A DNA stretch of 64,000 bases from Candidatus Zambryskiibacteriota bacterium (GTDB lineage: Bacteria; Patescibacteriota; Minisyncoccia; Phycocordibacterales; Zambryskibacteraceae), in contig JACPAD010000001.1 in assembly GCA_016180955.1 (NCBI GenBank), positions 8,527 through 72,526 of the forward strand, given 5' to 3'. The position numbers and the translations under genes were made by a program. A model generated the notes under the pieces. It was not told the origin of the DNA. It searched no databases and saw only the letters and a program-made list of their open reading frames with translations. Numbering within the stretch: the stretch's first letter is position 1; every line of letters starts with the position of its first letter. Positions 4,865 through 35,100 of the stretch are shown here, piece by piece.

Positions 4865-6106
4865 ATGCTCCAAGGATTTGTCCATGCTTTGAGAATTCAG
4901 TCGAAAATCATTTTTATCGTGGTGCGCAATTTGAAAGGTTTGACGCAGGTTGTGGTGGCAGCTGATAACTTGGAGTTTGAGACAGCAAAAAATCTATCCC
5001 TCGAATCGGTTGTCAGAGTAACGGGAGAAATGAAAGAAGAGAAAGCCGCTCCCGGAGGCATTGAGATGCATCCGACTAAAATAGAAGTGCTCTCGAGAGC
5101 CGAACCGGAACTACCGATACCAGTAGTTATCAAGGGTGGGGAAGAGACCGAAGCACCTATACGCTTCGATTACCGCTGGCTGGACCTGCGTAAACCGGAG
5201 AAAACAAAAATCTTTAAAGTTTGGACCGAGTTTGAGAAGGGTTGGAGAAAGTATTGGGATGAGAATAATTATATCCAACTTTATCCACCCGCATTAATGT
5301 CCACGCCATCAGAGAGCGGCGCGGAAGTCTTCGAGGTTAAGTATTTCGATAGGAAGGCATATCTGGCACAATCCCCTCAATTTTACAAGCAAATGGCCAT
5401 GGCGGCAGGTTTCGAAAAAGTTTTCATGGTGTCTCCCGTGTTTCGCGCCGAAGAGTCCTTTACCACTCGCCATGTGACGGAGTTTACCGGCTGGGACTTT
5501 GAAATTTCTTATATTAATGACCACAACGACGTGATGGATGCCGAAGAGGGAATGATTATCGAGGGGTTTAAGGCGCTCAAAGAAGCTCAAATTCCCAACT
5601 TGGAAGCTCAGCTTCCAAGTAGGCCATTTCCAAGAGTTACTATGATTGAAGCAAAAAAAATTCTCGCAGGTCTGGGTATTGCATCTCTCGATGCCGACGA
5701 TCTTTCTCCTGAAGAAGAAAAGGCAATTTCTGATTGGGTGCTCAAAGAAAAAAACCATGAATTTGTATTTATCACCGAATATCATAAATCTAAGAGCGCT
5801 TTCTACCATATGCGAAGTGTCGAAGACCCCGAGCGTAGTCGAAGGGCGGATCTACTCTACCGCGGACTTGAGGTTACAACGCTTGCCCAGCGCGAGCACA
5901 GAGTAGAAATTCTCGAGAAGCAAGCGCAAGAAAAAGGGATGGCTCTTGAGCCGCTCAAAGATTACCTAAACTTCTTCCGCTACGGCTGTCCGCCGCACGG
6001 CGGCGCCGGCATCGGCCCAGCTCGATTTATCATGAAAATCCTCGGCCTCGGGAACGTCCGCGAAGCAACTTATCTCCCAAGAGACGTAAAACGTCTGAAT
6101 CCGTAA
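4865..6106 (+). CDS. aspS: Aspartyl-tRNA synthetase, archaeal/eukaryal-type (short form)
   Basis: Class II motifs SPVFRAEES and GGAGIGPARFIM. OB-fold N-terminus (IFIVVRNLKGLTQVV). 413 aa; N-terminus shorter than usual. Confidence 0.85.
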   Translation: MLQGFVHALRIQSKIIFIVVRNLKGLTQVVVAADNLEFETAKNLSLESVVRVTGEMKEEKAAPGGIEMHPTKIEVLSRAEPELPIPVVIKGGEETEAPIRFDYRWLDLRKPEKTKIFKVWTEFEKGWRKYWDENNYIQLYPPALMSTPSESGAEVFEVKYFDRKAYLAQSPQFYKQMAMAAGFEKVFMVSPVFRAEESFTTRHVTEFTGWDFEISYINDHNDVMDAEEGMIIEGFKALKEAQIPNLEAQLPSRPFPRVTMIEAKKILAGLGIASLDADDLSPEEEKAISDWVLKEKNHEFVFITEYHKSKSAFYHMRSVEDPERSRRADLLYRGLEVTTLAQREHRVEILEKQAQEKGMALEPLKDYLNFFRYGCPPHGGAGIGPARFIMKILGLGNVREATYLPRDVKRLNP

Positions 6107-7399: not shown

Positions 7400-8336
7400 T
7401 AAATTTTTCATTACCAAAGACTCCGAAATAAAATTCTTCTTTGTCCTCGCGACTGCTTTAGCACTTCTCTTTATCATCTCTTTTACTATTGGCTCGAGAG
7501 TCGAACGCAAAGATAACTCCGTGCCCACTAAGACGGCCTCTGGAGAATTTCCGGTTCTGGATGTCAAAGCCAAAAGCGCTTACATCTACGATGTTCGCAC
7601 TAAGACCGTTCTTTTTGCCTTGAATGAAAACATCCGTCTGCCTTTAGCGTCACTCTCTAAGCTTATGGCGGCGCTCGTGGCTTACGAGCTCTCGCCCGAC
7701 TACGGCACAGTTATGGTGACGCGCGAAGCCATCGCTACCGAGGGCGATAGCGGTTTAAAGGCGGGGGAGAGATGGTCGCTTAAAAATCTTTTAGATTTCT
7801 CTTTGCTAAGTTCATCCAACGACGGCATCAAGGCGGTGGCACTCTCACTCGGAGCACTCTCCCGAGCGGAAGCAGGTCCGGAGGAGATTGTGGATGACTT
7901 CGTCCGTAAGATGAATTACAAAGCAGCAGAGCTTGACCTCAAGAATACTTACTTCTGGAACGAAACCGGCTTGGATGAATCGGAGGTAAAGGGCGGCGCT
8001 TACGGCACCGCTAAAGACCTCACCGCGCTTATGGAATATATCATCTCTTACTATCCGGAGATGCTTGAGGCTACCCGGCAACCGAGTGCCACCTTCAAAT
8101 CCGATAAGTATAATCACGCTATCAAGAATACCAATGCTTTAGCAGACGAAATTCCGAATCTTCTCGGCTCTAAGACCGGATTTACCTCGACAGCCGGAGG
8201 CAATCTGACCTTCGCCTTCGACCCCGAACTCGGCCGGCCGATTATCGTGACCATTCTCGGTTCAACAGAAAAAGGCCGCTTCGAAGATGCTAAAGCGCTC
8301 ATTAATGCTACTATGCAGTACATTAATGAGAATTAA
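7392..8336 (+). CDS. D-alanyl-D-alanine carboxypeptidase (serine peptidase S11, low-MW PBP)
   Basis: SxxK (SLSKLM), SxN (SSSND) and KTG (KTGFT) motifs. N-terminal TM anchor. Confidence 0.8.
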   Translation: MFNKFFITKDSEIKFFFVLATALALLFIISFTIGSRVERKDNSVPTKTASGEFPVLDVKAKSAYIYDVRTKTVLFALNENIRLPLASLSKLMAALVAYELSPDYGTVMVTREAIATEGDSGLKAGERWSLKNLLDFSLLSSSNDGIKAVALSLGALSRAEAGPEEIVDDFVRKMNYKAAELDLKNTYFWNETGLDESEVKGGAYGTAKDLTALMEYIISYYPEMLEATRQPSATFKSDKYNHAIKNTNALADEIPNLLGSKTGFTSTAGGNLTFAFDPELGRPIIVTILGSTEKGRFEDAKALINATMQYINEN

Positions 8337-31008: not shown

Positions 31009-32898
31009 TTATAAGTTTATTCGGCGCAAAAGCAGGGCGTTAATAGCAACAATGATCGTACTTGCTGACATAAACCCCGCCGCCAAGGCCGGTTCAAGAA
31101 TAATTCCTTTGGAGACAAGTACTCCGGCCGCCAGAGGCAGGGCGGCCACGTTGTAGCCGGTAGCCCAGAAAAGGTTCTGAATCATCTTTGAGTATGTCAT
31201 CTGGGAAAGCCTGATAATCTTTACGATATCCCGAGGATCGTTCCTAACAAGGATAATACCTGCTGATTCAATAGCAACGTTCGTGCCGGCACCAATAGCG
31301 ATACCGAGATCGGCTTGAGTGATGGCCGGTGCGTCATTAATACCGTCACCAACCATCGCGACCCTTAGATTACGCTTCTGAAGCTCCTTAACTTTTTCAG
31401 ACTTTCGATGAGGCAGTACCCGAGCAAAGTATTCGTCAATGCCAAGCTCGCGGGCAACCGATTCTGCTACCTCTTCCGAATCGCCGGTAATCATAGCCGA
31501 TTTAATGCCCATCTTCTTGATTTGCTTCAAGGCCTCTTTTGCTTCTGGTCTTATCTTGTCAGCGGCTTGAATGACGCCGATTTGTTTATCATCGACTTCA
31601 ACAACGATATCAGACGCACCACGCTGGCCGACAAAAACTTTTTTGCCTTCCACTTCCGCTTGGGCACCGATACCGGCAATGCGCTTGAAGTTTTTTGACT
31701 CTTTTAGTTCCAGATTTCTTTTCTTCGCTTCGTCGACAATGCCTTTGGCGATGGGATGTTCAGAATGAATGTCAACAGAGGCGGCTAGAATCAAGGCTTC
31801 ATCAGACGAGTAAGAAGTAACCCCAAAGACGCCTTCCGTGAGTGTTCCTGTTTTATCGAAGAGCACAGTATCGATAGTTCGCGCCACTTCCAAGGCAAGC
31901 CTTTGTTTTACGAGGAACCCATTCTGTGCCGCTTTGGTCGTGGAGATTGAAGCCACAAGTGGCACGGCAAGACCAAGTGCGTGCGGACAGGCGATGACCA
32001 GTACCGCCACCAGCCGAGCAACCGCGAAGCCGACATCGGCGCCGACCGCAAGCCATAGGACAAGGGTAGTAATGCCCCCGCCGACAGCCACGACGGTCAA
32101 ATAGAGAGCCGCTCTGTCAGAAAGAATTTGGAGTCGAGATTTGCTGGCTGCGGCCTCGGCCACCAGACGCATGACGCCGGCCAGGAATGTTTTCTCGCCA
32201 ATATTCGATACCCTAATCTTTAGCGCTCCATCTCCGTTGATTGTTCCGGCGATAACAGAGTCGTCTTCTTTTTTAGAAACCGGCTTTGATTCTCCGGTTA
32301 CCATAGATTCGTTTACATCGGATTCTCCATCAATAACCGTGCCATCCGCTGGAATCTTTGTCCCCGGCTTAACTAATACTATGTCATTCTTCCGAAGTTC
32401 AGAAAGAGGAATGATTTCTGTTTTGCTTGCCCCGAGCGCGGTCGAGGGGTTGCCGCGAATTACTTCAGCAGTGTCCGGAAGCAGTTTAGACAACTCTTTG
32501 AGTGCACCCTGGGCGCCGCTAACCGCTCGCATTTCAAGCCAGTGGCCGAGAAGCATTATAGTAATGAGCGTTGTAAGTTCCCAGAAAAGCGGTTCCTCTC
32601 CTGCAAATACCGCATATACGCTCCATAGATATGCGGAGCAAATAGCGAGGCCAATGAGAGTCATCATGCCGGGCAAACCGGCCTTAAGTTCGCGCCATGC
32701 TCCTAGAAGGAAGATCCAGCCACCGTAGAAAAATACGAACGAGCTAAGTATTAAAGGCAAATAATCTGAATCTTTGTAAAGTATCACTGGAATCGTAAGA
32801 ATCAGACTTACTAAAAATTTTCTCAAAAAATCTTCAGTATGGTGTCCCGCGTGCTTGTTTGCACTGAGCGCAGTCGAAGTGTTGTGATTATGCTCCAT
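31009..32898 (-). CDS. copB: Heavy-metal (copper) P1B-type ATPase, CPH / His-rich N-terminus (CopB-like)
   Basis: TGES, CPH, DKTGTLT and GDGINDAP motifs. N-terminus MEHNHN...HAGHH. Start moved to ATG 32898 because the ORF-track extension to 32961 is the tRNA-Glu sequence. Confidence 0.9.
32425..32448 (-). repeat. In-frame element copy (CCCTCGACCGCGCTCGGGGCAAGC = PSTALGAS) in copB
   Basis: Lies in EVIRG[[10 protein letters not shown]]TEIIPL, where the protein looks longer than I recall for typical CopA/CopB. Confidence 0.5.
32857..32880 (-). repeat. In-frame element copy (ACTTCGACTGCGCTCAGTGCAAAC = TSTALSAN) in the copB N-terminus
   Basis: Core TCGACTGCGCTCAG.GCA is identical to the scpB copy. 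Confidence 0.5.
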
Positions 32899-32903
32899 AT
32901 TTA

Positions 32904-32975
32904 TGACCTCACGGAGAATCGGACTCCGGTTCCGAGCTTGAGAAGCTCGTGTCCTAACCACTAGACGATGAGGCC
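32904..32975 (-). tRNA. tRNA-Glu (anticodon CUC), no encoded CCA
   Basis: Hand-folded: GGCCTCA/TGAGGTC acceptor, GTCT/GGAC D-stem, CGAGC-TTCTCAA-GCTCG anticodon arm, CGGAG-TCCGATT-CTCCG T-arm, 72 nt. Confidence 0.9.
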
Positions 32976-33206
32976 AACTAATTTTTCAATCGACTGTCTA
33001 CTTTTCCAGTTCTTAATCTGTTTTTCTCTTATTCTGGATTCTGAAAGTGTAGAGTATCTCTCTGTATGAATCAACTGCCACGGTCTTTCTGATTTTGTAC
33101 TTTTTACTCTGCCACTGTTGTGCTGATTCAGTCTTCTGGTCACGTTATCTGAAGCACCTATGTAATATCGGTTATTAACAGATTTTATAATATATACCCA
33201 ATGCAT
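32961..33206 (-). CDS. GIY-YIG nuclease superfamily protein (81 aa, stand-alone catalytic domain)
   Basis: VYIIKS...YYIGAS...RRLNQHN...E..IKNWK motifs. The last five codons and the stop lie inside the 5' end of tRNA-Glu. Confidence 0.8.
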   Translation of the reverse strand: MHWVYIIKSVNNRYYIGASDNVTRRLNQHNSGRVKSTKSERPWQLIHTERYSTLSESRIREKQIKNWKSRQSIEKLVGLIV

Positions 33207-33230
33207 GTTTTATATTGAAAAGTTTGTGTC

Positions 33231-33287
33231 TCCCGATTTTGATTCATCAAAATCGAGGATCCTCGATTTCTTAAAGAGAAATCGGGA
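33231..33287. repeat. Nested inverted repeats (four ATCG(A)GGA/TCC(T)CGAT arms) in the GIY-YIG leader
   Basis: TCCCGATTTT ... AAAATCGAGGA|TCCTCGATTTC ... GAAATCGGGA. Allows two hairpins, or an outer plus central palindrome. Confidence 0.5.
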
Positions 33288-33330
33288 CTAACCACTAGAC
33301 GATGAGGCCAATAACGTACAAAACGATAAC

Positions 33331-35100
33331 CTAAAAATTATCTTTTTTCAACGTTAATGGCGCCGGAGGTGCTGATTGCCTATCCGGTGGGATGTCATAG
33401 TAATTAATTAAGAATTTAGTGATGTTGAAAAAGGAATCGGTCAAAGTTTCGGAGGCGAATTGCACTCCTTTCGGATTGTAAGTGAATAGGAAAATCAAGA
33501 ATTCCGGGTCATAGCTCGGGAAGTAGCCGAAGAAGGAGTGCAGGAAGAGGTCTTCGTAATACCCTCCCCCGCCAACACGGGCAATCTGGGCCGTGCCGGT
33601 CTTAGCCGCCACACTGTAATTCTCAAGCCTCATCTGCCCGAAACGCAGAGAGCGGTCCACCACCTCCGTAAGCATCCGGGAAAGCTCGGCCGATGACTCC
33701 TGGCTAATCACCCGTTTACGCCCCTCTTCCGCGGGGTATTGAATAGTTTTTCTACCTCCTATTTTGTACCTGACTTCTTTGGCCAGATGCGGAGTAATAA
33801 GCGTGCCTCCGTTTGCCAGAGCCGATAGGGCGCGAACGGTGGCCATAGGCGTTAATGCAATACCTTGGCCGAAAGAGGCCTGAGCCAGTTCAAGACTGCG
33901 ATTACTTTTGAGATTCGAGACTAAAGAGAGACCTTCGTTGGGAAGGTCTATGTCGGTCTTGTCGCCTAAACCGAAGGACATCATGTATTTACTGAATTTT
34001 TCGTTCCCCACTCTTACCGCCACGTAGGCCGCGCCGGTGTTTAAGGACTGGTTTAGCACCTCCTGCATGGTAACGGATACGCCATGACTTTTGCCATCGT
34101 AGTTACAGAAAGTTTTGGTATTGAGCGTCATACAACCGGGGTCATTGTAAGTAGTTTTAGCAGTAATGGCACCGGTATCAAGGCCGATGGCGAAGGTTAA
34201 GGCCTTGATAATCGAGCCCATCTCGTAACGGTCTTCTACTAAAATGTTTCTGAAGATATCCGAACTCTCCGCTTTCTGCGGAGAGTTCGGGTCGAAAGTC
34301 GGCTCCAGAGCCAAGGCAGCAATTTCGCCGGTTTTAGGATTGATAACGATGCCGCCGGAGAAATCGGAAGAATATTTTTCCGTTATTTTCTTCAGCACGC
34401 TTTCAAGGAAGGCCTCGACAGATGGCTCGATGGTGGTAACGATATCTCCCTCAATCGCCTCCCTGTCCTTGACTACCGATTTGACGTTGGAAAAAATCTC
34501 GGCAAAAAAGTTGACGAAGACGTCATCACTCTCTCTTTTGAGTGTTTCCTCGTAGTAGCGCTCCAGACCATAGCGACCGGCAAGCTCATCACCGGAATAG
34601 CCAATGAGTCCGACAGCATGTGCAGCCATACTCTCGCCGGGATAAATACGCCAGCGCTCACGCGTGACAGCTAGTCCAGGAATTTTCTGCGCCTGTATCT
34701 TATCAGCCAAATCTTTTTCAAGCCTGGTGGCGAGCTCCTCATAAGGGTCGTTGAGTTTACCCGCCTTAAGCATGAAAAGCTCTTTTTCCAACGGAACAAT
34801 GGCATTGATTTGCTTATAGATACTTTCGAGGTCGCCACGGTCTCGAAGAAGATTCGGATTAGCGCTTAAGAGAAAGCCAGTTTTAATGTTTGCCGCCGGC
34901 ACGAGAGCCCCGTCTTTGGTGGAAAAAAAGATCGAACCACGGTCGAAGTAGCTGACACCCGCAACGTACTGGTGTTCCGCGCGCGCTCGAAATTGTTCGC
35001 CGGAGATGATCTGGACAAAGTAGAGTTTGCTTATGAGCACAAAAGTAAAAAGAAGCAGAAGAAGTGTCAGCAAGCGCAATCTGTTCCCGGAAGCGGACAT
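33331..35100 (-). CDS. ftsI: Penicillin-binding protein 2/3 transpeptidase (FtsI-like)
   Basis: SxxK (SIIK), SxN (SLN) and KTG (KTGTA) motifs. N-terminal TM helix. Downstream of ftsL-like in the mraZ operon. Confidence 0.9.
   Translation of the reverse strand: MSASGNRLRLLTLLLLLFTFVLISKLYFVQIISGEQFRARAEHQYVAGVSYFDRGSIFFSTKDGALVPAANIKTGFLLSANPNLLRDRGDLESIYKQINAIVPLEKELFMLKAGKLNDPYEELATRLEKDLADKIQAQKIPGLAVTRERWRIYPGESMAAHAVGLIGYSGDELAGRYGLERYYEETLKRESDDVFVNFFAEIFSNVKSVVKDREAIEGDIVTTIEPSVEAFLESVLKKITEKYSSDFSGGIVINPKTGEIAALALEPTFDPNSPQKAESSDIFRNILVEDRYEMGSIIKALTFAIGLDTGAITAKTTYNDPGCMTLNTKTFCNYDGKSHGVSVTMQEVLNQSLNTGAAYVAVRVGNEKFSKYMMSFGLGDKTDIDLPNEGLSLVSNLKSNRSLELAQASFGQGIALTPMATVRALSALANGGTLITPHLAKEVRYKIGGRKTIQYPAEEGRKRVISQESSAELSRMLTEVVDRSLRFGQMRLENYSVAAKTGTAQIARVGGGGYYEDLFLHSFFGYFPSYDPEFLIFLFTYNPKGVQFASETLTDSFFNITKFLINYYDIPPDRQSAPPAPLTLKKDNF

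What the first reader, a model, noticed from the sequence alone, without database searches (positions are those of the whole stretch)
32904..33311. GIY-YIG mini-gene inserted at the 5' end of tRNA-Glu with a 24-bp duplication of the tRNA 5' part
On the minus strand the order has four parts. First, a fragment identical to tRNA-Glu positions 1-22 plus 2 upstream nt (33311-33288). Second, a 57-nt block of nested inverted repeats (33287-33231). Third, an 81-aa stand-alone GIY-YIG ORF (33206-32961). Fourth, a complete tRNA-Glu(CUC) (32975-32904). The ORF's last five codons and TAG stop are made of the tRNA's own 5' end (..LVGLIV* = TTG GCC TCA TCG TCT AG). The repeat unit is exactly 334 bp. This is what is expected if a small nuclease-encoding element inserted into the tRNA D-loop region and brought a replacement 5' segment, displacing the original one. 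GIY-YIG domains drive homing in phage and intron contexts. Such a minimal tRNA-targeting unit with 5'-end regeneration is unusual, because integrative elements usually duplicate tRNA 3' ends.
Basis: partly seen in the sequence, partly recalled or inferred. Interest (0 to 1): 0.65.

Follow-up and report, generated by a model that had tools for sequence, protein, structure and literature searches.

The report
GIY-YIG hairpin element splitting tRNA-Glu
A tiny nuclease gene and a 57-bp double-hairpin insertion lie in the remains of an old tRNA-Glu gene next to an intact copy, and the same design recurs across many CPR bacteria, which points to a family of selfish elements I could not find described that break essential genes yet leave a working copy.

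Summary
There is an exact 24-nt repeat 334 bp apart, an 81-aa GIY-YIG ORF whose last 4 codons and stop lie inside tRNA-Glu(CUC), and a 57-nt double hairpin.

- After the hairpin block the tRNA sequence resumes (nt 23-38, 13/16). The upstream piece is therefore an old tRNA-Glu 5' part interrupted by an insertion.
- The block (TCCCGAT-hairpin-ATCGAGGATCCTCGAT-hairpin-ATCGGGA) belongs to a multi-copy CPR family. It gave at least 120 exact-core hits in species-representative genomes. Flank consensus is TTG|CAA, with no target-site duplication. Some copies sit in frame inside genes.
- "Autonomous" copies carry this same Slx1-like GIY-YIG gene in the loop of hairpin 1, and often a whole replacement tRNA in hairpin 2.

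In 80 loci sampled by protein similarity, about two thirds have the ORF abutting a same-strand tRNA, usually with partial duplicates of that tRNA. About 15 tRNA-Glu loci share the window's layout. Four Zambryskibacteria relatives have tRNA-Glu without the cassette. One filled/empty pair (L001/L211) places the old fragment at the native position.

Best reading: a selfish, homing-type cassette in which the native 5' piece is displaced and an intact tRNA is kept. It mirrors fungal mitochondrial mORFs. The mechanism is inferred, not shown.

The parts
33323..33351 (-). Promoter-like site (TTGAAA-17-TATCGT) inside the PBP2 3' end, ending 13 nt upstream of the old tRNA +1. It is a candidate native tRNA promoter that could now drive old fragment, ORF and tRNA.
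   Evidence: It was the only hit in the region and is not above the shuffle expectation, so it rests on position alone.
33288..33311 (-). Old tRNA-Glu 5' piece: nt 1-22 (33309-33288) plus 2 flanking nt. It is an exact copy of the resident tRNA 5' end.
33231..33287 (.). 57-bp two-hairpin palindromic insertion element. Termini are TCCCGAT (33287-33281) and ATCGGGA (33237-33231). It lies between old tRNA nt 22 and 23 and carries no cargo.
   Evidence: family-wide covariation of both stems.
33252..33267 (.). Central perfect 16-bp palindrome ATCGAGGATCCTCGAT, the signature of the element family.
33215..33230 (-). Remnant of old tRNA-Glu nt 23-38 (D-stem 3' strand, anticodon stem 5' strand and loop). 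It matches the resident tRNA at 13/16, with 3 GC->AT changes, and now forms part of the ORF leader.
   Evidence: Homologous remnants in L001, L126, L169, L189 and L140.
32961..33206 (-). 81-aa stand-alone GIY-YIG nuclease gene of the Slx1-like/UPF0213 type. Its stop TAG (32963-32961) lies inside the tRNA D-loop.
32904..32975 (-). Intact tRNA-Glu(CUC). It is 71/72 identical to the tRNA-Glu of relative L203, which lacks the cassette.

Best explanation
The locus is a decayed member of a family of selfish elements in CPR/Patescibacteria. I found no description of this family in the searchable literature.

An Slx1-like mini GIY-YIG nuclease gene has become lodged in a tRNA-Glu gene. The native 5' part (nt 1 to about 38) was displaced upstream, where it keeps the native upstream flank. 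It has since been split by a 57-bp double-hairpin element of the same family. An intact tRNA-Glu directly follows the ORF, so the host keeps the function.

Proposed mechanism (inferred): the nuclease cuts intact target genes or hairpin/cruciform DNA. Repair from an element-bearing copy then copies the ORF together with the adjoining piece, or a whole copy, of the target gene. The cargo-less hairpin blocks would be non-autonomous relatives mobilised in trans.

Shown here: the anatomy, the family, the tRNA association, presence/absence polymorphism, and conserved hairpins.
Inferred: cleavage specificity, the repair pathway, and who moves the blocks.
For: 1. The same layout (old tRNA-Glu 5' piece, then block, remnant, ORF and intact tRNA-Glu) occurs in L001 and L002. 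It also occurs in about 15 further metagenome loci with different neighbours. In each, the fragment matches the local tRNA.
2. Filled/empty pairs. L001 and L211 share tRNA-Ser(cga) and a homologous spacer. L211 has an intact tRNA-Glu exactly where L001 has the old fragment. Relatives L203, L204, L205 and L209 have tRNA-Glu(CUC) with no cassette.
3. The block is a real element family.
   - At least 120 exact-core hits were found, almost all in CPR genomes.
   - 95 hits have both arms.
   - Termini are invariant, the flank consensus is TTG|CAA, and there is no TSD.
   - 15 copies are read through in frame inside long ORFs.
   - Stems covary: 99% of cells paired, and 73 double-sided changes against 20+/-4 in shuffles.
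4. Autonomous form: in 32/80 protein-sampled loci the ORF lies in the loop of hairpin 1. TCCCGAT is 14-35 nt upstream and the core 5-46 nt downstream. In 16 of these loci an intact tRNA follows the core, and where the right arm could be found (L155, L159, L161, L163, L201, L145, L151) it lies in the hairpin-2 loop. Where traced (e.g. L061, L106, L040, L155), the element sits precisely inside an old tRNA of the same kind. In silico excision restores tRNAs at L035, L053 and L106.
5. Nested re-invasion (Russian dolls) is seen at L030, L170 and L200.
6. The same 5'-duplication logic appears at protein genes: topA in L127, where old and new copies differ at synonymous sites, and leuS in L005.
7. 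Nuclease lineages track tRNA identity. The nearest neighbour shares the tRNA label in 33/54 cases against 6 expected.
8. Catalytic Tyr, Tyr, Arg, His and Glu are conserved.
9. The cassette is AT-richer than the window, 36.8% against 46.6% GC.
10. Known analogues exist: mORFs that carry replacement gene ends (PMC3630166), and the SegB GIY-YIG that cuts in tRNA clusters and drives tRNA+segB duplication (PMC2330249, PMC13096335).
Against: - The 81-aa protein has no DNA-binding domain, so long-target homing specificity is unexplained.
- The intact tRNA stays in the genome and should remain a target.
- The old-tRNA/ORF junction varies (about nt 22, 35, 38 or 43). The block sits at 22|23 or 11|12 in different Glu loci. 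This fits secondary decay but not one fixed homing site.
- Old and new tRNA segments are often 100% identical. That fits in situ duplication or gene conversion at least as well as import from a donor.
- The complete tRNA here is native-like, 71/72 identical to L203.
- Only one block is present in this 64-kb window.
- There is no exact empty site for this very locus, because tRNA-Glu is inverted relative to PBP2 in the relatives.
- Nothing here shows cleavage or movement.
Confidence: 0.5

Rival explanations
1. Hairpin transposon with in situ duplication. The double-hairpin block is the true mobile unit, moved at the DNA level by the GIY-YIG acting as a structure-specific nuclease on its hairpin ends (REPIN/RAYT- or IS200/IS605-like in logic). 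It inserts at TTG|CAA-like sites. The tRNA duplicates are not imported. They arise locally by nuclease-induced breaks and unequal recombination, as in SegB-driven amplification, after which one copy is hit by the block.
For: - No TSD, a defined flank consensus, invariant termini and covarying hairpins.
- Many cargo-less copies occur in non-tRNA sites, including in frame within genes.
- The ORF sits inside hairpin 1 in 32/80 loci.
- Old and new tRNA segments are commonly 100% identical.
- The resident tRNA is native-like.
- Slx1 relatives are structure-specific nucleases (PMC1564403).
- SegB is a precedent for duplication of tRNA plus nuclease gene (PMC13096335).
Against: - A GIY-YIG enzyme alone cannot join DNA, and no transposase or recombinase is seen.
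- Some old/new pairs are very different (L061, L040, L032). The topA copies differ at synonymous sites, which points to import from another lineage.
- The window holds only one block.
Confidence: 0.3
2. RNA-level element. The block, and the larger ORF-bearing versions, are introns or intervening sequences that are removed from the transcript. On this view the interrupted tRNA is still a gene.
For: - Insertion at tRNA position 35|36 in several loci coincides with the site favoured by group I introns in Patescibacteria tRNAs (PMC13011429).
- Joining the flanks restores perfect tRNAs at L061, L106, L035 and L053.
- The hairpins are conserved.
Against: - No Rfam intron or any other family match in the window or in 11 element-bearing loci.
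- 54-90 nt is too small for a group I core.
- Intragenic copies are mostly multiples of 3 and free of stops, so they are translated rather than spliced.
- Intact replacement tRNAs accompany the interrupted ones.
- In the window the old tRNA has no 3' half at all.
Confidence: 0.05
3. Host function. The mini GIY-YIG is a domesticated repair or RNA-processing nuclease co-transcribed with tRNA genes. The fragment plus hairpins is a leader or regulatory relic with no mobility today.
For: - Prokaryotic Slx1-like proteins were proposed to be vertically inherited repair enzymes, and a TrmH fusion hints at RNA metabolism (PMC1564403).
- There is tight, same-strand coupling to tRNAs.
- The old nt 1-22 is kept identical to the tRNA while the remnant decays: 131/133 against 70/83, p=1e-4.
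Against: - The cassette is absent beside the same tRNA in close relatives.
- There are frameshifted and truncated copies (L078, L030 at 1711), nested repeats, insertion inside protein genes, and multiple tRNA identities.
Confidence: 0.1
4. Assembly artefact or chance repeat.
For: The contig comes from a MAG. A 24-nt repeat could in principle mis-join reads.
Against: - Zero chance expectation.
- A homologous architecture with locus-specific sequences occurs in many independent assemblies.
Confidence: 0.02

Closest known systems
Fungal mitochondrial mobile ORF elements (mORFs; Allomyces atp6, Glomus atp6/atp9/cox2/nad3 gene hybrids)
   Same: - A free-standing endonuclease ORF (LAGLIDADG or GIY-YIG) inserts into an essential gene and brings a replacement copy of the disrupted gene end.
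- The native end is displaced as an unexpressed remnant.
- The ORF can lack its own stop and read in phase with the gene (PMC3630166).
   Different: - There the 3' (C-terminal) end of protein genes is replaced. Here it is the 5' part, or all, of a tRNA.
- The enzyme here is an 81-aa Slx1-like domain with no DNA-binding module.
- The elements here are bounded by, or associated with, a conserved double-hairpin element.
- The host is a bacterial chromosome.
Phage T4/T6 SegB (free-standing GIY-YIG homing endonuclease in the tRNA gene cluster)
   Same: - A GIY-YIG gene is embedded among tRNA genes and cleaves within tRNA gene DNA.
- It promotes inheritance and tandem duplication of a tRNA+nuclease unit through short homology between the tRNA 5' end and the nuclease gene 3' end (PMC2330249, PMC13096335).
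   Different: - SegB is a larger HEase/UvrC-lineage enzyme and is phage-borne.
- It has no hairpin element and no disrupted old tRNA copy.
- No relatives of the window protein, and no true element copies, were found in the viral collection.
REP/REPIN-RAYT systems, Rickettsia palindromic elements and IS200/IS605 PATEs
   Same: - Short, multi-copy palindromic hairpin elements, some inserted in frame in protein genes (RPE-like).
- No target-site duplication and a short sequence-defined target.
- The putative mobilising gene is flanked by the same hairpins.
   Different: - Those systems use HUH (Y1) transposases.
- Here the only associated protein is a GIY-YIG nuclease, which cannot by itself carry out strand transfer.
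- The two-hairpin unit with a central GGATCC palindrome, and the tRNA cargo, have no counterpart known to me (own knowledge).
Group I introns at position 35/36 of Patescibacteria tRNA genes
   Same: Same host group, and the same favoured site (anticodon 35|36) for several element copies (PMC13011429).
   Different: - No ribozyme: no Rfam hit, and the size is 54-90 nt.
- Evidence of translation through the element in coding genes.
- Replacement tRNAs are present.
GIY-YIG-bearing non-intron insertion sequences in CPR rRNA genes
   Same: The authors report GIY-YIG ORFs in rRNA-gene insertions that match neither group I nor group II introns, plus many short (<200 bp) uncharacterised insertions (PMC11270868). 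These may belong to the same element family.
   Different: [quoted passage not shown] A link to the present family was not tested here.
tRNA-targeting integrative elements (tyrosine-integrase islands and prophages)
   Same: They insert in a tRNA gene and carry a partial copy that restores it.
   Different: - They duplicate the 3' end through att recombination by an integrase.
- There is no integrase here, and in this locus it is the 5' part that is duplicated. A 3'-type arrangement also exists in the family.

Membership tests
GIY-YIG nuclease superfamily, prokaryotic Slx1-like / UPF0213 (YhbQ-type) cluster | GIY-YIG domain profile match | tested here: met
   PF01541 E=1.6e-17, 64 bits against a cut-off of 22.6, covering residues 1-70.
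GIY-YIG nuclease superfamily, prokaryotic Slx1-like / UPF0213 (YhbQ-type) cluster | Conserved catalytic Tyr (GIY), Tyr (YIG), Arg, His and Glu | tested here: met
   Y5, Y15, H29 and E61 are invariant, and R25 is at least 90% conserved, across 12 family members.
GIY-YIG nuclease superfamily, prokaryotic Slx1-like / UPF0213 (YhbQ-type) cluster | Minimal stand-alone domain, closest to 1zg2/1ywl and SLX1 rather than to UvrC or I-TevI | tested here: met
   PDB best hits are 1zg2 (9e-7), 1ywl (1e-6), then SLX1 (1e-3). The group I intron endonuclease and UvrC NCBIfam models score only 15-17 bits, far below their cut-offs. The 2006 classification places 1ywl and 1zg2 in the Slx1 cluster (PMC1564403).
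Homing endonuclease gene (free-standing, intronless-homing or mORF type) | Nuclease ORF inserted in or abutting a conserved target gene | tested here: met
   The ORF overlaps tRNA-Glu by 15 nt. In a protein-based sample, 38/80 relatives abut a downstream tRNA and about 19 an upstream tRNA.
Homing endonuclease gene (free-standing, intronless-homing or mORF type) | Presence/absence polymorphism at the same gene in related genomes | tested here: met
   L211 against L001. L203, L204, L205 and L209 lack it. For the window itself the tRNA orientation differs from the relatives, so the site is not strictly identical.
Homing endonuclease gene (free-standing, intronless-homing or mORF type) | Enzyme cleaves the element-free allele at or near the insertion site | not testable with these tools
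   Needs biochemistry.
Homing endonuclease gene (free-standing, intronless-homing or mORF type) | Extended DNA-recognition module giving a long (14-40 bp) target | tested here: not met
   The protein is 81 aa and is catalytic domain only.
Homing endonuclease gene (free-standing, intronless-homing or mORF type) | Co-converted, foreign flanking segment in the restored gene | tested here: inconclusive
   Foreign-looking copies occur at L061, L040, L032 and at topA in L127. Identical copies occur at many loci, and the tRNA here is native-like.
MITE / REP-like palindromic repeat element | Many dispersed copies with conserved termini | tested here: met
   At least 120 loci, with several copies per genome in other CPR MAGs (for example MFQY01) and invariant TCCCGAT/ATCGGGA termini. 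There is only 1 copy in this window.
MITE / REP-like palindromic repeat element | Target-site duplication (classical DDE-derived MITE) | tested here: not met
   TSD-like matches of 2 nt or longer occur in at most 3 of 90 flanks.
MITE / REP-like palindromic repeat element | Conserved hairpin structure with variable stem sequence | tested here: met
   99.2% of cells paired, covariation 0.30 against 0.083, and slid controls collapse. Caveat: copies were selected partly by stem pairing.
MITE / REP-like palindromic repeat element | Cognate HUH or DDE transposase | tested here: not met
   The only recurrent associated ORF is the GIY-YIG.
tRNA intron (group I, group II or BHB) | Ribozyme or known RNA family signature | tested here: not met
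   No intron hit in the window region or in 11 loci.
tRNA intron (group I, group II or BHB) | Both exons present so that splicing yields a tRNA | tested here: not met
   In the window the old copy ends at nt 38, and no 3' half exists. This feature is met in some other loci.
tRNA-targeting integrative element | Integrase and att duplication of the tRNA 3' end | tested here: not met
   No recombinase-sized ORF lies between PBP2 and the ATPase, and the duplication is of the 5' end.

The most novel reading that the evidence does not exclude
The TCCCGAT...ATCGGGA double-hairpin elements are a new class of bacterial DNA transposon or homing element. Their only enzyme is a minimal Slx1-like GIY-YIG structure-specific nuclease encoded in one hairpin loop. 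They insert without target duplication at TTG|CAA-like sites, including tRNA loops. They survive in essential genes by carrying a replacement copy in the other hairpin loop (a whole tRNA) or downstream (a gene 5' end). The window locus would be a decayed tRNA-Glu-specific lineage of this class.
Probability: 0.3. Interest if true: 0.9.

Novelty: new variant of a known kind. Interest (0 to 1): 0.75.

Why it matters
If this is right, three things follow.

1. The large and functionally obscure family of bacterial stand-alone Slx1-like GIY-YIG proteins (thousands of clusters) gains a concrete biological role as the engine of a selfish element.

2. It reveals a strategy for invading essential single-copy genes in tiny genomes: break the gene but deliver a spare. 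This is known from fungal mitochondria for the 3' ends of protein genes. I found no report of it for bacterial tRNAs or for 5' ends.

3. It has practical consequences.
   - These elements create tRNA pseudo-fragments and tRNA-like genes with a hairpin in place of the anticodon arm. Gene finders mis-call these.
   - They add in-frame peptide insertions to CPR proteins.
   - They may underlie the "non-intron" insertions reported in CPR rRNA genes.

The nuclease, paired with a defined hairpin and target, is small enough to be of interest as a tool. It is directly testable in vitro.

Tried and rejected
- **Known RNA families.** Rfam on the region (E up to 10) and on 11 element-bearing loci found only tRNAs. 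No intron or known RNA was found.
- **Phage origin.** The viral collection gave 3 exact-core hits, which are chance matches inside a coding sequence without the arms. No protein relatives were found there. A phage vector is not supported.
- **UUC-isoacceptor origin of the remnant.** I first thought the post-block remnant came from a UUC isoacceptor carried in by the element. Its 3 differences from the resident CUC tRNA are all GC->AT transitions. It is about as close to L001's remnant (my count 14/16) as to its own tRNA (13/16). Decay of a local copy explains it equally well.
- **Insertion just after start codons.** Cargo-less blocks do not do this more often than control frames: 5 of 38 against 13%.
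- **Truncation of the P-type ATPase by the cassette.** The ATPase N-terminus (MEHNH...) is intact. It only lacks an internal metal-binding segment that homologues have.
- **Exact empty site via flanking genes.** The PBP2 and ATPase neighbours gave relatives without the cassette, but their tRNA-Glu is in the opposite orientation or in another neighbourhood. L211/L001 was the only clean pair.
- **Literature.** Searches found no description of this element. The closest are PMC11270868 and PMC13011429.
- **Structure prediction.** Not run. Sequence hits to solved UPF0213 and SLX1 structures were sufficient.
Full report
**1. Observation**

On the minus strand the region reads as follows:
- PBP2 stop, then 19 nt.
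- GGCCTCATCGTCTAGTGGTTAG (33309-33288).
- TCCCGAT...ATCGGGA (33287-33231).
- GACACAAACTTTTCAA (33230-33215), then TATAAAAC.
- ATG...TAG (33206-32961).
- tRNA-Glu(CUC) (32975-32904), then 5 nt, then the ATG of a P-type ATPase at 32898.

The 24-nt repeat is exact and spaced 334 bp apart. Zero matches are expected by chance even with 3 mismatches allowed. Only the downstream copy is a tRNA for ARAGORN and Rfam. The ORF is a GIY-YIG domain, PF01541 E=1.6e-17. Its last four codons (GLIV) and TAG are tRNA nt 1-15. The 57-nt block folds into two adjacent hairpins, -30 kcal/mol with flanks, z=-2.8.

Positions 23-38 match at 13/16, and all three differences are GC->AT. So the upstream copy is the 5' half of a tRNA-Glu gene with a 57-bp insertion between nt 22 and 23. 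It is not a 22-nt fragment followed by a spacer.

**2. The block belongs to a large element family**

The two closest homologues of the protein with retrievable DNA are L001 (70% identity) and L002 (57% identity). Both show the same layout next to their own tRNA-Glu, with different neighbouring genes. The block carries the same termini and the same central palindrome ATCGAGGATCCTCGAT.

Almost all were from Patescibacteria (Saccharibacteria, Yanofsky-, Magasanik-, Sung-, Adler- and Azambacteria, among others). Several genomes had many copies. Ten hits in non-CPR genomes lack the arms and are chance matches.

Properties of the family:
- Of 131 cores, 95 have both arms detected. Cargo-less copies are typically 51-123 bp.
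- Across 90 non-redundant copies the termini TCCCGAT and ATCGGGA are essentially invariant.
- The flanks show a consensus TTG|CAA: T 51, T 43, G 58 | C 57, A 54, A 47, each out of 90. There is no target-site duplication.
- The hairpin interiors are almost all different in sequence, yet they pair. On 27 aligned copies, 99.2% of cells form pairs. There are 73 double-sided changes against 19.7+/-3.8 in shuffles. The signal collapses when partners are slid. Copies were selected partly by stem pairing, so the first pairs are somewhat circular.
- By context, 64 copies look intergenic. Fifteen lie inside long ORFs and are read through in frame. Six restore an ORF on excision, and three restore a tRNA.
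- Lengths that are multiples of three are enriched, 42 of 87. This argues that intragenic copies are translated, not spliced.
- The window itself has a single copy.

**3. The GIY-YIG gene is part of the same family**

In loci found through the block, and in 80 metagenome loci found through the protein alone, 32/80 ORFs sit inside hairpin 1. TCCCGAT lies 14-35 nt upstream, an inverted repeat brackets the ORF, and the core palindrome lies 5-46 nt downstream.

In 16 of those loci an intact tRNA follows the core. Where the right arm could be found, this tRNA lies in the loop of hairpin 2. Where traced, the whole element lies precisely inside an older tRNA gene of the same kind. Examples are tRNA-Ala split between anticodon nt 35|36 in L061, L106, L078, L138 and L163; tRNA-Ser in L155, L161 and L033; and tRNA-Thr in L040 and L159. 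Joining the outer halves gives a perfect tRNA.

L030, L170 and L200 show nested series, in which the cargo tRNA has itself been invaded.

About 19/80 loci show the mirror layout: intact tRNA, then ORF, then a second copy of that tRNA. In that second copy the anticodon arm is replaced by a solo TCCCGAT-n-ATCGGGA hairpin.

Overall, 38/80 ORFs have a same-strand tRNA immediately downstream, and roughly a dozen more have one only immediately upstream.

**4. The window type**

Eighteen of the 80 loci have the core 50-90 nt upstream of the ORF. Most of these (about 14) are followed by tRNA-Glu (L123, L124, L126, L130, L132, L133, L146, L169, L178, L187, L189, L190, L191, L202). L001, L002 and the window share this layout.

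In this lineage:
- The block sits at 22|23 or at 11|12 of the old copy.
- The old copy then runs to about nt 22, 35, 38 or 43 before the ORF leader begins.
- In L202, L133 and L146, old 3' parts are still found downstream of the intact tRNA.

The window has no such 3' part.

The nearest relatives of the window protein are the tRNA-Glu-associated ones. Across the family, a protein's nearest neighbour shares its tRNA label in 33 of 54 cases against 6 expected, with 0 of 2000 permutations reaching that value.

**5. Insertion polymorphism**

PBP2 homologues of 75-77% identity led to four Zambryskibacteria relatives (L203, L204, L205, L209). Each has an uninterrupted tRNA-Glu(CUC) near PBP2 and no ORF, block or fragment. 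L203's tRNA is 71/72 identical to the window's. In all four, however, the tRNA is on the opposite strand relative to PBP2.

A cleaner pair is L211 against L001. Both have tRNA-Ser(cga) on the opposite strand, followed by a homologous spacer. In L211 the spacer leads into an intact tRNA-Glu(UUC). In L001 it leads into the old fragment, block, remnant, ORF and tRNA-Glu. The old fragment is therefore the native 5' end at the native place. The ORF and the intact copy lie downstream of it.

**6. The same logic at protein genes**

- In L127 an ORF-bearing element separates an old topA start (MGKLVIVESPTK|) from a complete topA (MSKLVIVESPTKAK...) that begins 8 nt after the element. By my reading of the two sequences, five of the six shared VESPTK codons differ and every difference is synonymous. 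That suggests the two 5' ends evolved as functional genes in different lineages.
- In L005 a cargo-less block separates an old leuS start (MKYNPQKIEKKW|) from the complete gene.

**7. The protein**

It belongs to the stand-alone Slx1-like/UPF0213 cluster. Hits are 1zg2 at 9e-7, 1ywl at 1e-6 and SLX1 at about 1e-3. This is the cluster defined in PMC1564403, characterised by a minimal domain and no C-terminal Asn. The catalytic Tyr, Tyr, Arg, His and Glu are conserved. It has 6826 representative clusters at E<=1e-3. It has no DNA-binding extension. Eukaryotic SLX1 is a structure-specific nuclease (established knowledge; PMC1564403).

**8. How it most likely works**

Shown:
- The anatomy.
- The family relationship of block and ORF.
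- The tight and lineage-specific tRNA association.
- Precise interruption of older gene copies with an intact copy beside them.
- Presence/absence among relatives.
- Conserved hairpins.

Inferred: the nuclease makes breaks in target genes or in the hairpin DNA. Recombinational repair from an element-bearing template then copies the ORF together with the adjoining part, or a full copy, of the target gene. The recipient's own piece is left as a displaced remnant.

This is the mirror image of fungal mitochondrial mORF "gene hybrids" (PMC3630166). It also resembles SegB, a GIY-YIG enzyme that cuts in phage tRNA clusters and drives duplication of a tRNA+segB unit through short homology (PMC2330249, PMC13096335).

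The cargo-less blocks would be non-autonomous derivatives. The one in the window may have landed in the already dead old copy. Alternatively it may mark the actual recombination junction. In six window-type loci, old nt 1-22 are 131/133 identical to the intact tRNA, whereas the post-block remnant is 70/83 identical (p=1e-4). It also fits adaptation of the remnant as the ORF leader.

A further inference: if the old fragment's promoter-like site (not above chance) drives one transcript, RNase P cleavage at tRNA +1 would remove the ORF's stop codon. This would couple low nuclease expression to tRNA processing.

**9. Weak points**

- There is no recognition domain.
- The intact tRNA remains a potential target.
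- The junctions are variable.
- Old and new copies are frequently 100% identical, which favours in situ duplication or gene conversion. Other loci, in contrast, have clearly foreign copies (L061, L040, L032, topA).
- A GIY-YIG enzyme cannot join DNA, so any transposon-like behaviour must rely on host repair.

I therefore keep a strong rival: a hairpin transposon with nuclease-induced local duplication.

**10. Novelty**

Literature searches found no description of this element. The nearest reports are:
- PMC11270868, which records GIY-YIG ORFs in CPR rRNA-gene insertions that are not introns.
- PMC13011429, which describes group I introns at 35/36 in Patescibacteria tRNAs.

Neither mentions the hairpin element, disrupted or duplicated tRNAs, or the Slx1-like enzyme. 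My search covers only the held library.

I class the finding as a new variant of a known kind: a selfish nuclease element with gene-part replacement, combined with a palindromic repeat family. There is about a 0.3 chance that it represents a new class of mobile element.

Noticed in passing
L150 ~440-520, L175 ~1735-1810, L200, L193, L136, L165, L179, L198 (downstream of the GIY-YIG ORF): These are tRNA-like second copies in which the 17-nt anticodon arm is replaced by a solo hairpin TCCCGAT-n-ATCGGGA (variants TCCCGGC..GCCGGGA). The D-arm, T-arm and acceptor parts stay mostly 100% identical to the intact tRNA upstream. ARAGORN calls some of them tRNA-Val(aac), tRNA-Ile(tat) or tRNA-Stop(tta). 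In L175 the Rfam tRNA model hit only the upstream intact tRNA, not the copy ARAGORN calls tRNA-Val(aac).
   Followed up: partly
L008 2008-2061, L011 6841-6894, L047, L086, L088, L107, L116, L060, L029, L049, L081, L102: Cargo-less double-hairpin elements lie inside long ORFs, with lengths that are multiples of three and without stops. They would therefore add 18-37 residues to CPR proteins, like Rickettsia palindromic elements.
   Followed up: partly
L127 (element with GIY-YIG; new topA start at 378) and L005 (block at ~5680-5770; new leuS start at 5780): Protein genes show the same old-5'-fragment | element | complete-gene arrangement as the tRNAs. The topA copies differ at synonymous sites.
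   Followed up: partly
L144 ~1403-1800 and L153 ~1478-1800: In two different genomes an ORF-bearing element sits immediately after the ATG of the same small ORF (MEFS[HN]Y.EVP...EGKK*, 22-23 aa). In L144 this small ORF is duplicated on both sides of the element. The identity of the small ORF is unknown.
   Followed up: no
L034 ~1290-1800; L079 ~2230-2320: GIY-YIG/tRNA cassettes (tRNA-Pro, tRNA-Arg) are associated with double-hairpin blocks that have different arm sequences: TCCCTAGG...GGATCC...CCTAGGGA, and AGCCGAC...GTCGGCT CCCCGAC...GTCGGGG. This suggests a wider superfamily than the exact-core scan shows.
   Followed up: no
L018 ~1640-1760, L103 ~7590-7710, L118 ~440-560 and ~1380-1500: Here the element is nested in the loop of a larger repeated palindrome (cctgtggataaacgactt / aagtcgtttatccacagg). 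This looks like a second repeat family.
   Followed up: no
window 31009-32898 (-): The P-type ATPase that starts 5 nt after the tRNA keeps the family's N-terminus (MEHNH...). It lacks the internal Cys-rich metal-binding segment (PF19335) present in its closest homologues. The CsoR-type repressor gene that precedes the ATPase in L211 and L212 is not present upstream of it here.
   Followed up: partly
window 32904-33311 versus L203 5281-5352 and L209 4781-4852: tRNA-Glu(CUC) is co-oriented with PBP2 in the window but convergent with it in four relatives. Their downstream genes (MGMT-like, YqeY, RmuC) are also replaced here by the ATPase operon. A rearrangement breakpoint therefore coincides with the cassette.
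   Followed up: partly
L203 5400-5950 (same region in L209): A stretch of about 1.3 kb without called genes lies next to tRNA-Glu in the relatives. Its first ~550 nt (5400-5950) look GC-rich and possibly structured. This could be a structured RNA gene. It was not examined.
   Followed up: no
L130 ~1410-1470 and ~2040-2100: Two nearly identical copies of one block variant (differing at one core position) lie about 600 bp apart. Both are flanked by ..TCGT|CTA.., the D-arm sequence of tRNA-Glu. This suggests local re-insertion or a second old tRNA fragment.
   Followed up: no
window 32961-33311: The cassette is AT-richer (36.8% GC) than the window as a whole (46.6% GC).
   Followed up: yes
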